Positions 10,577 to 40,722 of a DNA stretch of 40,722 nucleotides are shown here, piece by piece. The stretch covers positions 1 to 40,722 of the forward strand of contig JALVIB010000013.1 of the NCBI GenBank assembly GCA_027028725.1, in the 5' to 3' direction. Each line of letters begins with the position of its first letter. Positions within the stretch are counted from its first letter, which is position 1. Made by a program: the position numbers and the translations under genes. The stretch is from Candidatus Altimarinota bacterium (lineage in GTDB: Bacteria; Patescibacteriota; Gracilibacteria; UBA4473). Below the pieces are notes generated by a model. The model worked only from the letters and a program-made list of their open reading frames with translations, was not told where the DNA came from and did not search any database.

Positions 10577-12460
10577 ATGTCTATTCAGGTTTTGCCTCCC
10601 GAAATCGCTAATCAAATTGCCGCCGGTGAAGTTGTCGAAAGACCCGCCAGCGTGGTCAAAGAATGCGTTGAAAATTCCCTCGATGCCGGCGCGAAAAATA
10701 TTGAAATTCATATTTCAGACGGCGGAAAAGAACTGATTAAAATCATCGATGATGGGAAAGGAATGTCGCCTGAAGACGCGAAAAAATGCCATTTGCGACA
10801 CGCTACTTCTAAAATTTCTAAAATCGATGACTTATTTACAGTGCAATCTTTTGGTTTTCGCGGAGAAGCACTTGCCGCAATTTCTGCGGTTTCGGATTTT
10901 ACTTTGATTACGAAACGCGCGGAAGACGAAACCGGAACAAAAATCCAAATTTTCGCGGGAAAAAATATCACCGAATCCCCTGCTCCCGCCAATACCGGGA
11001 CAACGATTGAGATTAGAAAATTATTCTATCCAACTCCGGCTCGTTTGGCTCATTTAAAGACAAATGCGACCGAAATTCGCGAAATTTCGCGGGAAATTCA
11101 AGCTTTTGCGCTAGCTAATCCGCAAGTTAGTTTTAAGTTTTTTAAGGACGACAAACTTGCTCTGGATTTGCCGGCAACGGATAAAAAAACGCGTGTAGCC
11201 GAAATTTTGAAAGAAAATCCCGATGACTTGGCAGAAGTTTTCTTTAAATCCCGCGAAATTTCTATTTCCGGATTTCTCATTAAACCGGGAAAATGTGTTT
11301 CTAATAAAAAATCTCAATTTTTGTTTGTAAACGGACGCCGAATCGAAGACTATAAATTAGCTTACGCCATTCGTGAAGCGTATGTGCAGTCGGCAGGAAT
11401 TGAGCATCACTTGCATCCAAAATTCGCGATATTTATCGAAATTGATCCGATTTTGGTCGATGTAAATGTTCATCCGCGGAAATTGGAAGTGAAATTTGCG
11501 GAAGCGGGCGATGTTTTTCGCGCGGTCAAGCAGGCGTGTGTTTCGGCTTTGGAAAAAGTCCACACTACTCCTTTTTCTGGATTTGTAGGGACAGGTCGCG
11601 ACCTGTCCGCCCAAAATAGTCAAAATTTCGCGGGATTTCAGCCCTCACCCCAAACCCTCTCCCCGAGGGAGAGGGAGTTCTCATCAAACGGAAGAAAAAA
11701 TTATCAATCTTTTGGAATAAATAATAACGCGCACAAAATCCCGCGAAATTATCCGAAAATGTCCAAGTCCGGACTTAATACATATTCAAACACATCAAGT
11801 CCGGACTTAAAAACATTTTCTACTCAAAACTTTGAGCGAAATTTACAAAACACAGGCAATTTTCCACTTCCAGAAGAAAAAAATATTGTGCCAACCGGCG
11901 AACTAAAACTCATCGGGCAAATTTCGCGAAAATACATTATGGCGGAGGCGGAAAACGGGATTTGGATATTTGATCAGCATGCTTTGCACGAACGCCAGCG
12001 CTTTGAAGAGTTTTGGAAATCCCGCGAAAAATTGACCAAGGAAATTCAAAAATTACTTGTTCCGTATGTCTTAAAAATTGAAGACGAAGATTGGGAAACA
12101 ATTTGGCAAAATCGCTCGGAATTACAAAAACTTGGTTTTGAATTTAGCGAAAACAAAGAAGTTTTAGCCGTTCCCAAAATTCTAGTCAAAGAAAATCTTG
12201 ACCAAATTTTCGCGGGATTTTCGCAGTATTTTTCCGAAAATAAAGTCGGTGAAACGCCAGTTGATCGATTTTTACGAAAAATTCTGGAATACAAAAGTTG
12301 TCGTGGTGCGGTAATGTTTGGTGATAAAATGGAACCTGCCGAAATGCAAAAACTTTTGGACGATTTCCAGACTACGCAATGGCGAAATCTCTGTCCACAC
12401 GGCCGTCCAAATCATATTTTTTGGAGTTTTGATGATTTAGACAGAGAGTTTCATCGGTAA
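10577..12460 (+). CDS. mutL: DNA mismatch repair protein MutL
   Basis: N-terminal GHKL ATPase blocks (IQVLPPEIANQIAAGEVVERPASVVKECVENSLDAGA, DDGKGM, FGFRGEAL). C-terminal dimerisation domain with QHALHERQ and CPHGRP. The linker (about 11585-11810) is built from repeats. Confidence 0.93.
   Translation: MSIQVLPPEIANQIAAGEVVERPASVVKECVENSLDAGAKNIEIHISDGGKELIKIIDDGKGMSPEDAKKCHLRHATSKISKIDDLFTVQSFGFRGEALAAISAVSDFTLITKRAEDETGTKIQIFAGKNITESPAPANTGTTIEIRKLFYPTPARLAHLKTNATEIREISREIQAFALANPQVSFKFFKDDKLALDLPATDKKTRVAEILKENPDDLAEVFFKSREISISGFLIKPGKCVSNKKSQFLFVNGRRIEDYKLAYAIREAYVQSAGIEHHLHPKFAIFIEIDPILVDVNVHPRKLEVKFAEAGDVFRAVKQACVSALEKVHTTPFSGFVGTGRDLSAQNSQNFAGFQPSPQTLSPREREFSSNGRKNYQSFGINNNAHKIPRNYPKMSKSGLNTYSNTSSPDLKTFSTQNFERNLQNTGNFPLPEEKNIVPTGELKLIGQISRKYIMAEAENGIWIFDQHALHERQRFEEFWKSREKLTKEIQKLLVPYVLKIEDEDWETIWQNRSELQKLGFEFSENKEVLAVPKILVKENLDQIFAGFSQYFSENKVGETPVDRFLRKILEYKSCRGAVMFGDKMEPAEMQKLLDDFQTTQWRNLCPHGRPNHIFWSFDDLDREFHR
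11585..11608 (+). repeat. REP-like hairpin embedded in frame in the mutL linker
   Basis: GTAG + GGACAGGTCGCGACCTGTCC (perfect 20-nt palindrome). Translated as VGTGRDLS. Confidence 0.8.
11765..11776. repeat. AAGTCCGGACTT 12-nt perfect palindrome (in the mutL linker)
   Basis: Exact 12-mer, read as KSGL. Confidence 0.85.
11797..11808. repeat. AAGTCCGGACTT palindrome (in the mutL linker, different frame)
   Basis: Exact 12-mer, read as SPDL. Confidence 0.85.
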
Positions 12461-12512: not shown

Positions 12513-13133
12513 ATGAAATTTAAAAATAAATTATTAATAGGTGGGTCTATCGTTTTAGGAAGCGTAACTATTGGTCTATTTCTAAATAATAAAAAAGAAA
12601 TCGCAAGGTTTGAGAATATAACAAAAGGAAAAATTGCAAAAATCATCGAAAATGAAGCAAAAATATATAAACAAGATCCTAAACTTTTAAAAACCTGTGC
12701 TCTTACTGAATCATTAAATAGTAACACGCCAAATGTTTTTCAATTAGAAACTAAGACTTACATAGAAATTGCTATAGAATTGTATCATGCTGGTCATACC
12801 GATATCGATACAACTTCTGCAGGTCTTAATAATTTAGAATCAAGTATTAAATGTGGAGTTAAGCATTTTTCGCGACTTTTATACAAATACAGTGATCATT
12901 ATGGTGGAAATTACAAATCTTATTATCCTCAAATACAAAAAATAATATCTGATCAGGGACTCAATAATCTATCTCCAGTTGTAGTTATGTCCTTGATAGC
13001 ACACAATCGTGGTGAAGGGAATATGGATAAGTGGCTCAAAAATGGTTGTAATTTTAAAGATTTACCAAGGATAACTAAAGAACATATTGCAAGGGCCGAT
13101 CGCAATATGCGTTGGATGCGAAAAAGCGCTTAA
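12513..13133 (+). CDS. membrane-anchored protein, possibly a lytic transglycosylase (SLT-like)
   Basis: 206 aa. N-terminal TM helix. TES...NVFQLE and AHNRGEGN loosely resemble the ES / LMQ / AYNxG blocks of family-1 lytic transglycosylases. Very AT-rich, with no CCCGCGAA motif. Confidence 0.35.
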   Translation: MKFKNKLLIGGSIVLGSVTIGLFLNNKKEIARFENITKGKIAKIIENEAKIYKQDPKLLKTCALTESLNSNTPNVFQLETKTYIEIAIELYHAGHTDIDTTSAGLNNLESSIKCGVKHFSRLLYKYSDHYGGNYKSYYPQIQKIISDQGLNNLSPVVVMSLIAHNRGEGNMDKWLKNGCNFKDLPRITKEHIARADRNMRWMRKSA

Positions 13134-39881: not shown

Positions 39882-39893
39882 AAGTCCGGACTT
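39882..39893. repeat. AAGTCCGGACTT palindrome, 22 nt after the 677-aa gene stop
   Basis: Exact 12-mer. Confidence 0.85.
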
Positions 39894-39913
39894 TAAATGT
39901 TCTGAAAAGAATT

Positions 39914-39925
39914 AAGTCCGGACTT
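39914..39925. repeat. AAGTCCGGACTT palindrome, second of a pair
   Basis: Exact 12-mer, 20 nt after the first copy. Confidence 0.85.
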
Positions 39926-40684: not shown

Positions 40685-40696
40685 CAAGTCCGGACT
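40685..40696. repeat. AAGTCCGGACTT palindrome, 11 nt after the FNR-family gene stop
   Basis: Exact 12-mer. Confidence 0.85.
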
Positions 40697-40722
40697 TGGC
40701 ACAGGATAAAAAGATCTTAAGT

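What the first reader, a model, noticed from the sequence alone, without database searches (positions are those of the whole stretch)
11585..11808. The MutL interdomain linker carries six in-frame repeat copies
Within ~225 nt of the mutL linker I read six repeat copies. They are a REP hairpin (11585-11608, VGTGRDLS), a TTCGCGGG motif (11627, NFAGF), a 9-bp-stem hairpin CCCTCTCCC-CGA-GGGAGAGGG (11655-11675, TLSPRERE), a CCCGCGAA motif (11740, IPRN), and two AAGTCCGGACTT palindromes in different frames (11765, KSGL; 11797, SPDL). The ATPase and dimerisation domains on either side are intact. The MutL linker is known to be long, disordered and length-variable, so it is a plausible safe harbour. 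Even so, a mismatch-repair gene whose coding sequence is packed with hairpin-forming repeats is notable, because such repeats could promote slippage or phase-variable inactivation and hence a mutator state.
Basis: partly seen in the sequence, partly recalled or inferred. Interest (0 to 1): 0.6.

Follow-up and report, generated by a model that had tools for sequence, protein, structure and literature searches.

The report
Repeat-built linker in MutL gene
The floppy middle of this tiny uncultured bacterium's MutL repair protein is largely encoded by copies of four DNA repeat families that litter the rest of its genome; they look like tolerated passengers in a length-tolerant linker, and nothing shows that they switch repair on and off.

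Summary
Each belongs to a genome-wide family:
- A, a GTAG-headed REP-like hairpin (19 copies).
- B, a 36-nt element that fits the E. coli "TMECO/BoxC" triplex motif (15 pattern matches).
- C, a paired AAGTCCGGACTT hairpin (131 words, 56 pairs).
- D, the hyper-abundant word TTCGCGGG (2,478 copies, one per 420 bp).

All copies lie in MutL residues 337-411, inside the linker that AlphaFold predicts to be disordered (pLDDT below 50). The ATPase and endonuclease/dimerisation domains and their motifs are intact.

This is the only 225-nt stretch of the 1.04-Mb assembly that holds all four families. The linker is 38 residues longer than the median of 117 homologues. Four congeners show that A, an 84-nt D+B module and the C-pair segment are separate lineage-specific indels, while the D words come and go by substitution. 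B also sits in frame in UvrC, LigA, a RecJ-like protein, IleRS and an AcrB-family protein.

Best reading: Rickettsia-palindromic-element-like colonisation of a permissive linker. The mutator-switch idea has no support: there are no tandem repeats, the only slippage product is an irreversible 32-nt frameshift, and read data were unavailable. One point is unexplained: the A and C words stay perfect despite roughly 40% neutral divergence, so some DNA-level force maintains them.

The parts
10577..12460 (+). mutL coding sequence. It encodes 627 aa of the endonuclease type, with DQHALHERQRFE, QKLLVP, SCRGA and CPHGRP motifs.
   Evidence: ORF; Pfam domains; invariant motif columns; 7,980 homologues with E <= 1e-50.
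11552..11911 (+). Interdomain linker, residues 326-445. It is predicted to be disordered.
   Evidence: It lies between DNA_mis_repair (ends at 325) and MutL_C (starts at 446). AlphaFold pLDDT is below 50 at 331-414 and 424-435 with no secondary structure. S/T/N/Q/G/P make up 54% of the linker against 26% of the rest of the protein.
11585..11608 (.). Family A, a REP-like hairpin: GTAG head plus GGACAGGTCGCGACCTGTCC. The family consensus is the 28-bp palindrome GTAGGGACAGGTCGCGACCTGTCCCTAC. It is translated as VGTGRDLS.
   Evidence: 19 exact core copies in the genome, 16 of them intergenic. The DNA hairpin has 8 bp. It is perfect in congener P0004, degenerate in G001 and absent in G002 and P0005.
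11609..11692 (+). 84-nt (28-codon) insertion found only in this genome (AQNSQNFAGFQPSPQTLSPREREFSSNG). It carries D#1 and B.
   Evidence: Codon alignment of five congeners: the flanks are identical to P0004 on both sides and the segment is absent from all four others.
11622..11638 (+). Family D word, copy 1 (AAAATTTCGCGGGATTT; core TTCGCGGG at 11627-11634). It encodes NFAGF.
   Evidence: 102 cores in the window against 1.4 expected and 2,478 in the genome. It sits 6 nt upstream of B, as in 6 of 20 B-type copies against 4% at random positions.
11641..11677 (-). Family B, a TMECO/BoxC-type element. On the minus strand it reads CCCTCTCCC-TCG-GGGAGAGGG-TTTG-GGGTGAGGG. It is translated on the plus strand as QPSPQTLSPRERE.
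   Evidence: It matches the TMECO pattern of PMC4666352 except for a 4-nt second loop. There are 15 pattern matches in the genome, and 10 of the 11 exact cores lie in long ORFs.
11735..11750 (-). Family D word, copy 2 (AAAATCCCGCGAAATT; core CCCGCGAA at 11740-11747), inverted relative to copy 1. It encodes IPRN.
   Evidence: It is exact in P0004, has one mismatch in G002 and is deleted in G001. It is predicted to pair with copy 1 over 15 bp.
11765..11808 (.). Family C paired hairpin: AAGTCCGGACTT, a 20-nt loop, then AAGTCCGGACTT. It has no T-tract. It is translated as KSGLNTYSNTSSPDL.
   Evidence: 56 pairs in the genome with spacing 32-35. 39 of 40 intergenic pairs carry T-runs, but the mutL copy does not. 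The stem has 12 bp, z = -6.2. It is perfect only here, with 7 and 6 mismatches in G001 and G002, and the 51-nt segment is absent in P0004.

Best explanation
The mutL linker of this small-genome candidate-phyla-radiation (Patescibacteria) bacterium has been colonised by the genome's own dispersed repeats. The colonisation happened in separate events, and the repeats are read through as protein because the linker is disordered and tolerant of changes in length and sequence.

Shown: three G+C-rich hairpin elements are present or absent independently among congeners, and all three families are greatly expanded in this genome. They are the REP-like A, the TMECO/BoxC-type B (which arrived with a D word as an 84-nt module), and the terminator-type C pair (here stripped of its T-tracts). 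The two D words are instances of a genus-wide hyper-abundant word that is gained and lost by point substitution everywhere, including in conserved genes. Together the elements make up about 62% of the 224-nt stretch and account for the roughly 38 extra linker residues.

Inferred: MutL function is unaffected. The B element probably spreads in association with DUF559 nuclease cassettes, which it flanks elsewhere in the genome. Copies survive in coding sequence only where they keep the frame, lack stop codons and lack terminator tails. In mechanism this matches Rickettsia palindromic elements. It is not a regulatory switch.
For: 1. Location. All copies lie in residues 337-411, within the low-confidence, structure-free linker. 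The domains on both sides have pLDDT above 90 and intact catalytic motifs.
2. Family membership and counts.
3. Separate indel events. A is perfect in G000 and P0004, decayed in G001 and absent in G002 and P0005. The 84-nt D+B module occurs only in G000 and has clean junctions. The 51-nt C segment is absent in P0004. P0005 carries a different composite, D plus a GTCATTGCGAG-type cassette, at the place where G000 has D+B.
4. Expansion in this genome. Counts in G000, G001 and G002 are 22, 1 and 0 for A; 15, 0 and 1 for B; and 131, 12 and 6 for C.
5. Genome-wide in-frame carriage. B lies inside UvrC, LigA, a RecJ-like DHH protein, IleRS and an AcrB-family protein.
6. Excess length explained. The interdomain distance is 163 aa against a median of 125, and the linker is 124 aa against 83-109 in congeners.
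7. Terminator features removed. The linker hairpins have no T-tracts and no terminator is called there, whereas 39 of 40 intergenic C pairs have T-runs.
8. Tolerance is established for MutL. The E. coli linker is about 100 aa, and deleting 40 of them gives no mutator phenotype (PMC6902014).
9. Precedent. Rickettsia palindromic elements insert in frame into many housekeeping genes (PMC10969869).
10. Hairpins concentrate in linkers. Across 20 relatives, perfect hairpins of at least 8 bp occur at 1.32 per kb of linker DNA against 0.03 per kb of domain DNA, and most are in this genus.
Against: Purely passive passengers should decay, yet two elements have not.
- The A hairpin plus its head is 27/27 identical between G000 and P0004, although third codon positions in the domains are only 59% identical.
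- Both C words are perfect in G000 (0 of 24 changes), against 7 and 6 changes in G001 and G002.
So some DNA-level force acts even inside the gene: gene conversion among copies, selection on the word or hairpin, or biased repair or uptake.

Having all four families within 225 nt is unique in the genome. It is far above random placement of the few copies that lie in coding sequence (my estimate is about 1e-4, or about 1e-2 if only a few per cent of coding DNA is permissive). So clustering or targeting, and not only tolerance, may be involved.

No reads or strain variants could be examined, so neutrality for MutL function is inferred rather than shown.
Confidence: 0.7

Rival explanations
1. Selected nucleic-acid function. 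On this reading the hairpins and words in the linker are kept because they do something as DNA or RNA. Candidates are protein-binding or self-recognition words (D as a DNA-uptake-type signal, C as a palindromic binding site), a structured mRNA segment that slows ribosomes between the two MutL domains, or a recombination or gene-conversion target.
For: - A is 27/27 conserved between G000 and P0004, and the C words show 0 of 24 changes, despite about 40% neutral divergence.
- Only the 12-nt C words are kept, not the loop between them.
- The RNA fold is extreme: -83 kcal/mol, z = -7.5, with D#1 pairing to D#2 around B.
- D is genus-specific, equal on both strands and hugely over-represented.
- A ComEC-family gene is present.
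Against: - Congeners do without each element, and 14 of 20 relatives have no strong linker hairpin.
- The same conservation would result from concerted evolution of selfish repeats.
- No Rfam family matches anywhere in the window.
- Nothing ties any such function to mutL specifically.
Confidence: 0.17
2. Mutator switch or contingency locus. On this reading the structure-forming repeats make mutL break at a high rate, creating mutator subpopulations. The wild-type gene could be restored by recombination or uptake of intact DNA.
For: - Two 12-nt direct (and palindromic) words lie 32 nt apart. Deleting between them shifts the frame and truncates MutL at residue 409, before the endonuclease domain.
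- TMECO motifs are associated with local genetic instability in E. coli (PMC4666352).
- The linker is the fastest-changing, most indel-rich part of the gene among congeners.
- Repeat-mediated mutL switching is known in Salmonella and E. coli (PMC2955026).
Against: - There are no tandem short repeats or long homopolymers of the kind that give reversible slippage.
- All five congener alleles are in frame with intact domains.
- The observed indels are multiples of three, which means selection keeps the protein.
- The same elements sit in UvrC, LigA and IleRS, where a switch makes no sense.
- No variant reads or alleles are available.
Confidence: 0.07
3. Artefact. On this reading the repeat-dense stretch is a mis-assembly of a metagenome-assembled genome across dispersed repeats, or mutL is a decaying pseudogene.
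For: - The genome is a 94-contig assembly.
- The 84-nt D+B module is seen in this assembly only.
Against: - The ORF is uninterrupted, and the insertion is a multiple of three with both flanks collinear with P0004.
- A and the C-pair region occur at the same sites in independently assembled congeners.
- The mutL copy of B has its own variant (an extra A in the second loop), so it is not a copy-paste of another locus.
- The domains are conserved.
Confidence: 0.04

Closest known systems
Rickettsia palindromic elements (RPEs): selfish palindromic repeats inserted in frame in housekeeping genes (Ogata et al.; summarised in PMC10969869)
   Same: Both are dispersed palindromic elements found in intergenic DNA and also in frame inside unrelated essential genes of a small-genome bacterium. 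They are translated as extra surface or loop peptide, their presence or absence is lineage-specific, and the host proteins stay intact.
   Different: The elements here are much shorter (24-44 nt against about 100-150 bp) and unrelated in sequence. Several families are stacked in one linker. The host is a Patescibacteria lineage. No conserved peptide is encoded: B is read in five frames.
TMECO / BoxC / PIT intrastrand-triplex motif of E. coli and other Proteobacteria (Holder et al. 2015, PMC4666352)
   Same: Family B has the same architecture and nearly the same sequence as TMECO: CCCTCTCCC, a loop, GGGAGAGGG, a 3-nt loop, GGGTGAGGG. The copy number differs sharply between close relatives, and flanks are variable.
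   Different: The paper treats TMECO as intergenic and reports it from 262 proteobacterial genomes. Here it is in a candidate-phyla-radiation genome, and 10 of 11 exact cores are inside ORFs. The mutL copy has a 4-nt second loop. Triplex formation was not tested here.
REP elements with their RAYT (Y1) transposases, including intragenic REPs
   Same: Family A has a GTAG head followed directly by a G+C-rich palindrome. It is about 20-28 nt long, has about 20 copies that are mostly extragenic, and often occurs in mosaics with other repeats. One Y1_Tnp homologue is in the genome.
   Different: The Y1 gene is flanked by a different GTAG-palindrome family, not by A. The copy number is low. Mobilisation is unproven.
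DNA uptake sequences (USS of Pasteurellaceae, DUS of Neisseriaceae) and the cyanobacterial HIP1 word
   Same: Family D is a short word at about 2.4 copies per kb. It is equal on both strands, genus-specific, sits inside genes in many frames, is gained by substitution, and often forms inverted pairs around terminator hairpins.
   Different: No uptake experiment exists for this lineage. The density is higher than for USS or DUS. The function is unknown.
Repeat-mediated mutL switches (6-bp tandem repeats in Salmonella/E. coli mutL, PMC2955026) and SpyCIM1 integration in Streptococcus pyogenes mutL (PMC4689407)
   Same: In each case repetitive or mobile DNA lies inside a mismatch-repair gene.
   Different: Those systems are reversible (tandem-repeat copy-number change, or site-specific excision) and are shown to change mutation rate. 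Here the repeats are dispersed palindromes in the dispensable linker, with no reversible mechanism and no phenotype data.
SPRITE-type terminator-like mobile repeats (listed in PMC10969869)
   Same: Intergenic C pairs form a conserved hairpin with T-runs on one or both strands in 39 of 40 copies. This makes them look like a dispersed family of rho-independent-terminator-like elements.
   Different: The sequences are unrelated. The mutL copy has lost, or never had, the T-runs and the consensus loop.

Membership tests
MutL (endonuclease type) | GHKL ATPase domain, transducer domain and C-terminal dimerisation domain, with the DQHA(X)2E(X)4E, ACR/SCR and C(P/N)HGRP motifs | tested here: met
   Pfam finds HATPase_c_3, DNA_mis_repair and MutL_C. 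D466, Q467, H468, A469, E472, C575, R576, C606, H608, G609, R610 and P611 are invariant in 35 homologues. The two domains are modelled with high confidence.
RPE-like in-frame palindromic element | The same dispersed element occurs in intergenic DNA and in frame inside several unrelated, otherwise intact genes | tested here: met
   B lies in MutL, UvrC, LigA, a RecJ-like protein, IleRS and an AcrB-family protein. A and C occur both in intergenic DNA and in coding sequence.
RPE-like in-frame palindromic element | Orthologues in close relatives lack the element (insertion polymorphism) | tested here: met
   Five-way codon alignment of mutL. Congener genomes hold 0-1 B copies and 0-1 A copies in total.
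RPE-like in-frame palindromic element | Sequence homology to the Rickettsia RPE families and a conserved encoded peptide | tested here: not met
   The elements are 24-44 nt long and different in sequence. B is translated in five different frames and orientations. So this works like an RPE but is not a member of that family.
REP/RAYT | A GTAG tetranucleotide at the 5' end followed by a palindrome, with many mostly extragenic copies | tested here: met
   The consensus is GTAGGGACAGGTCGCGACCTGTCCCTAC. There are 19 exact cores, 16 of them intergenic.
REP/RAYT | A cognate RAYT (Y1 transposase) gene flanked by the same REPs | tested here: inconclusive
   There is one Y1_Tnp hit (33 bits, contig C87). 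Its neighbouring GTAG palindromes (GTAAGCGCGACGGCGCCGTCGCGC and its inverted partner GCGCGACGGCGCCGTCGCGCCTAC) belong to another family.
TMECO / BoxC / PIT triplex motif | The pattern is a C-rich 9-mer, a 3-6-nt loop, GGGNGAGGG, a 3-nt loop, then GGGNGAGGG (PMC4666352) | tested here: met
   13 of the 15 genomic matches fit the pattern with a 3-nt second loop. The mutL copy fits with a 4-nt second loop (TTTG).
TMECO / BoxC / PIT triplex motif | Forms a stable intrastrand triplex | not testable with these tools
   Only the 9-bp hairpin was predicted. Triplex formation needs CD or NMR measurement, or chemical probing.
DNA uptake sequence (USS/DUS) | Extreme over-representation, equal use of both strands, restriction to one lineage | tested here: met
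   102 copies in the window against 1.4 expected. The 11-mer occurs 726 and 720 times on the two strands. G001 has 290 copies, G002 has 1,030, and other genera have 6 or fewer.
DNA uptake sequence (USS/DUS) | Sequence-specific DNA uptake by a competence machine | not testable with these tools
   A ComEC-family gene is present. No receptor is known and there is no uptake assay.
Phase-variable or contingency locus | A tandem short repeat or homopolymer in or before the coding sequence whose copy number changes reversibly | tested here: not met
   The repeats are dispersed palindromes. The only direct repeat is the pair of 12-nt words 32 nt apart, and it gives a one-way frameshift.
Phase-variable or contingency locus | Length or frame polymorphism within populations | not testable with these tools
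The protein's 90% cluster has one member on one contig.

The most novel reading that the evidence does not exclude
The MutL linker is not just a passive dump. It is a preferred landing and maintenance site for structure-forming repeats, kept perfect at the DNA level: A is 27/27 identical across species, and the C words show 0 of 24 changes. This makes mutL a fragile gene, with hairpin, triplex and direct-repeat deletion substrates, in an organism saturated with a candidate DNA-uptake word. Mutator alleles would arise by repeat-mediated frameshift and be repaired by uptake and recombination of intact mutL. That would be a population-level, recombination-reset mutator cycle. Unchecked notes from this scan report hairpin repeats in the MutL linker in dozens of unrelated genomes, which would make this a general property of MutL.
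Probability: 0.07. Interest if true: 0.8.

Novelty: new member of a known kind. Interest (0 to 1): 0.4.

Why it matters
This is a clean, well-resolved example of how dispersed DNA repeats build protein sequence. About 38 extra residues of an essential repair protein are repeat DNA read through, and close relatives show each step of the build-up.

It extends RPE-like behaviour to the candidate phyla radiation. It places the E. coli triplex motif (TMECO/BoxC) inside coding sequence, next to DUF559 nuclease cassettes that may mobilise it.

It also shows that repeats inside a gene can be held perfect at the DNA level while the surrounding linker drifts, which points to an active homogenising or selective process. 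For annotation and protein-family work, it is a warning that odd low-complexity linker peptides such as SPRERE, PLPEGEG, KSGL...SPDL and NFAG can be repeat DNA and not evolved protein motifs.

The mutator-switch idea would matter for how tiny-genome symbionts tune their mutation rate, but it is currently unsupported.

Tried and rejected
2. Strain variants. The protein's 90% cluster has a single member. Only four congeners at 72-79% identity exist, so no population data could be had.
3. Polarising the indels on a tree. The five congeners form an unresolved star, so the order of gains and losses could not be fixed.
4. The 84-nt module as a tandem duplication or target-site duplication. The local alignment score is 14 against a shuffle mean of 13, so there is no support. 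By eye, the first 27 nt of the module resemble the P0005 allele (24/27) more than this genome's own downstream copy. That might mean allelic recombination, and it is left unexplained.
5. Internal terminators. None is called in the linker, and the linker hairpins lack T-runs.
6. Known RNA families. There is no Rfam match in the window.
7. A family flanking the RAYT-like gene. This was not found; another GTAG-palindrome family sits there.
8. Excess of D words in the linker. Two in 225 nt is only mildly above the coding average of 1.8 per kb, so it is not remarkable on its own.
Full report
**What is there**

The ORF at 10577-12460 (+) encodes a 627-aa MutL. Pfam places HATPase_c_3 at 24-124, DNA_mis_repair at 216-325 and MutL_C at 446-583. 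The endonuclease-type motifs (DQHA..E....E, SCR, CPHGRP) fall in columns that are invariant across 35 homologues. A MutS gene is present on another contig.

An AlphaFold model built on that alignment gives pLDDT above 90 for both domains. It gives pLDDT below 50, with no secondary structure, for residues 331-414 and 424-435. The finding (11585-11808, residues 337-411) therefore lies entirely in the disordered interdomain linker. The linker has 54% S/T/N/Q/G/P, against 26% in the rest of the protein.

**Check of the observation**

The repeats are far above chance:
- TTCGCGGG occurs 102 times in the 40.7-kb window against 1.4 expected.
- AAGTCCGGACTT occurs 5 times against 0.09 expected.
- In the 1.04-Mb, 38% G+C assembly the exact counts are 2,478 (D word), 131 (C word), 19 (A core) and 11 (B core).

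**The four families in context**

- A is the 28-bp palindrome GTAGGGACAGGTCGCGACCTGTCCCTAC. Sixteen of its 19 copies are intergenic.
- B is the 36-nt GCCCTCACCCCAACCCTCTCCCCGAGGGAGAGGGAG. On the other strand it reads CCCTCTCCC-TCG-GGGAGAGGG-TTG-GGGTGAGGG, which fits the TMECO/BoxC intrastrand-triplex pattern defined for E. coli (PMC4666352). There are 15 pattern matches in this genome. The mutL copy differs by one extra base in the second loop.
- C is not two separate palindromes. It is one element: two AAGTCCGGACTT arms 32-35 nt apart, in 56 pairs. In intergenic DNA 39 of 40 pairs carry T-runs, 36 of them on both strands, so they look like bidirectional terminators.
- D is the core of a roughly 17-nt word (AAATTTCGCGGGATTT) present about once per 420 bp on both strands.

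Folded as RNA, the 246-nt stretch reaches -83 kcal/mol (z = -7.5). The fold has the A hairpin, a 15-bp D#1:D#2 stem enclosing the B hairpin, and the 12-bp C stem.

**How unusual the linker is**

Among all positions in the assembly, this is the only 225-nt stretch that holds all four families (pattern A-D-B-D-C-C). Apart from UvrC, it is the only coding region with three or more.

The interdomain distance (HPxK to DQHA) is 163 aa against a median of 125 (range 105-178) in 117 homologues, rank 114 of 117. Within the genus the linker is 124 aa against 83-109.

In 20 relatives' mutL genes, perfect hairpins of at least 8 bp occur at 1.32 per kb of linker DNA against 0.03 per kb of domain DNA. They are concentrated in this genus, and 14 of 20 relatives have none.

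**Comparative anatomy**

Four congeners are available, with MutL 72-79% identical over the whole protein.
- A is perfect in G000 and P0004, has three changes in G001, and is absent from G002 and P0005.
- An 84-nt (28-codon) segment carrying D#1 and B is present only in G000. Both of its junctions are identical to P0004.
- P0005 carries a D word plus a different hairpin cassette at the equivalent place. That cassette is of the GTCATTGCGAG...GCAATC family, which has 51 copies in G000.
- The C-pair segment (51 nt) is missing in P0004. In G001 and G002 the homologous sequence is present, but the two words carry 7 and 6 mismatches.
- The D words differ from their orthologous positions by point substitutions. 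G002 has a perfect D word where G000 has none.

So the A, D+B and C units are independent indels, each a multiple of three, while the D words turn over by substitution. The three hairpin families are expanded specifically in this genome. Counts in G000, G001 and G002 are 22, 1 and 0 for A; 15, 0 and 1 for B; and 131, 12 and 6 for C. D is shared by the genus and absent outside it.

**The phenomenon is genome-wide**

Ten of the 11 exact B cores lie in long ORFs, in either orientation and in five reading frames. Pfam identifies the hosts as UvrC, NAD-dependent DNA ligase, a RecJ-like DHH protein, IleRS and an AcrB-family transporter. MutL is therefore one host among many, which argues against a role specific to mutL.

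D words sit at a fixed 5-6 nt upstream of B in 6 of 20 copies, lie near the GTCATTGCGAG cassette in 35 of 51, and bracket C pairs. The random expectation is 4%. The D#1+B arrangement in mutL is thus a standard composite of this genome.

**Mechanism**

Best reading (about 0.7): RPE-like colonisation of a permissive linker. Small palindromic elements proliferate in this genome. Copies that land in coding DNA persist only where they keep the frame, bring no stop codon and no terminator tail, and where the protein tolerates extra disordered residues.
- The MutL linker is the textbook case of tolerance. E. coli MutL loses 40 of its roughly 100 linker residues without a mutator phenotype (PMC6902014).
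- The mutL copies lack T-runs, and no terminator is predicted there.
- The precedent is the Rickettsia palindromic elements (PMC10969869).
- How the elements move is inferred, not shown. The genome has one Y1-transposase (RAYT-like) gene, but different GTAG palindromes lie next to it.
- All four DUF559 nuclease copies in the genome are flanked on both sides by B-type 'C-tract plus hairpin' elements. One of them is an in-frame DUF559 insertion in UvrC bounded by inverted B copies. This makes DUF559 cassettes a candidate source or mobiliser of B.

**What does not fit simple tolerance**

Third codon positions in the MutL domains are only 55-62% identical between congeners. Yet A plus its head is 27/27 identical between G000 and P0004, and both C words are perfect in G000 while their loop and the orthologous words in G001 and G002 have drifted. 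Some DNA-level process keeps these words intact inside the gene. It could be conversion among copies, selection on the word or hairpin, or biased repair or uptake. I give a functional nucleic-acid role about 0.17.

**The mutator-switch idea**

There are no tandem short repeats, so the known reversible mutL switches are not a model (PMC2955026; SpyCIM1, PMC4689407). The one plausible slippage event is deletion between the two C words. It removes 32 nt, shifts the frame and truncates MutL at residue 409, and it is irreversible. All five congener alleles are in frame. I put the switch at about 0.07 and an assembly artefact at about 0.04.

**Organism**

The nearest named MutL homologues come from Candidatus Gracilibacteria, Peregrinibacteria and Peribacteria metagenome-assembled genomes. 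The genome is about 1 Mb. Earlier notes of this scan call it a hydrothermal-vent Peribacteria genome; I did not check that.

**Verdict**

The 'safe harbour' reading is supported, and the 'phase-variable mutator' reading is not. The case is a new member of a known kind: in-frame selfish palindromic repeats. It is notable for stacking four families in one linker and for the DNA-level preservation of the words.

Noticed in passing
G000 contig C60:7989-10454 (locus L024), outside the window: UvrC (820 aa) carries an in-frame DUF559 nuclease domain (aa 523-630) that splits its RNase H-like endonuclease domain. The insert is bounded by two inverted B/TMECO-type elements: CTCCCTCTCCTTCTAGGAGAGGGCGGGGGTGAGGT upstream and GCCCTCACCCCGACCCTCTCCCCGAGGGAGAGGGAG downstream. 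A C pair lies further downstream in the same gene.
   Followed up: partly
G000 C84:271-591, C65:1687-2007, C5:5284-5616, C60:8562-8885: All four DUF559 copies of the genome are flanked on both sides, within about 10-80 nt, by 'C-tract plus hairpin' elements of B-like architecture whose sequences differ from copy to copy. Two of the four lie inside very long open frames (1,100 and 824 aa). Relatives G002 and G005 also have DUF559 inside 1,401-aa and 742-aa frames.
   Followed up: partly
whole genome; in the window e.g. 1578, 1682, 4288: There is a fifth repeat family, GTCATTGCGAG...(G/A)GCAATCTACTTCC, with 51 copies. In 35 of 51 it has a D word within 40 nt upstream (commonly 9-15 nt). A copy of this family sits in the MutL linker of congener P0005, where this genome has D+B.
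   Followed up: partly
G000 C87 (locus L030, 1459-2025): A single 188-aa Y1_Tnp (IS200/RAYT-like) ORF. A GTAG-type palindrome (GTAAGCGCGACGGCGCCGTCGCGC) lies inside its own coding sequence. Its inverted partner lies 268 nt downstream, inside the next ORF.
   Followed up: partly
window 11609-11640 versus L022 (P0005 mutL linker): The first 27 nt of the G000-only 84-nt module (CAAAATAGTCAAAATTTCGCGGGATTT) match the P0005 allele at 24 of 27. This genome's own downstream paralogous segment matches the P0004 allele instead. The linker may be an inter-allelic recombinant.
   Followed up: partly
window 39882-39925 and 40686-40697: Another C pair with 32-nt spacing lies in the spacer before the last gene of the window. 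A single C word follows that gene's stop codon, at the contig end.
   Followed up: no
G000 C39:4128-7907 (locus L027): IleRS is 1,259 aa long and has a histidine-phosphatase (His_Phos_1) domain inserted between the catalytic and anticodon-binding domains. A B element lies near its C-terminus.
   Followed up: no
window 12513-13133: The 206-aa ORF just downstream of mutL contains no exact TTCGCGGG core, whereas mutL holds seven in 1.9 kb.
   Followed up: no
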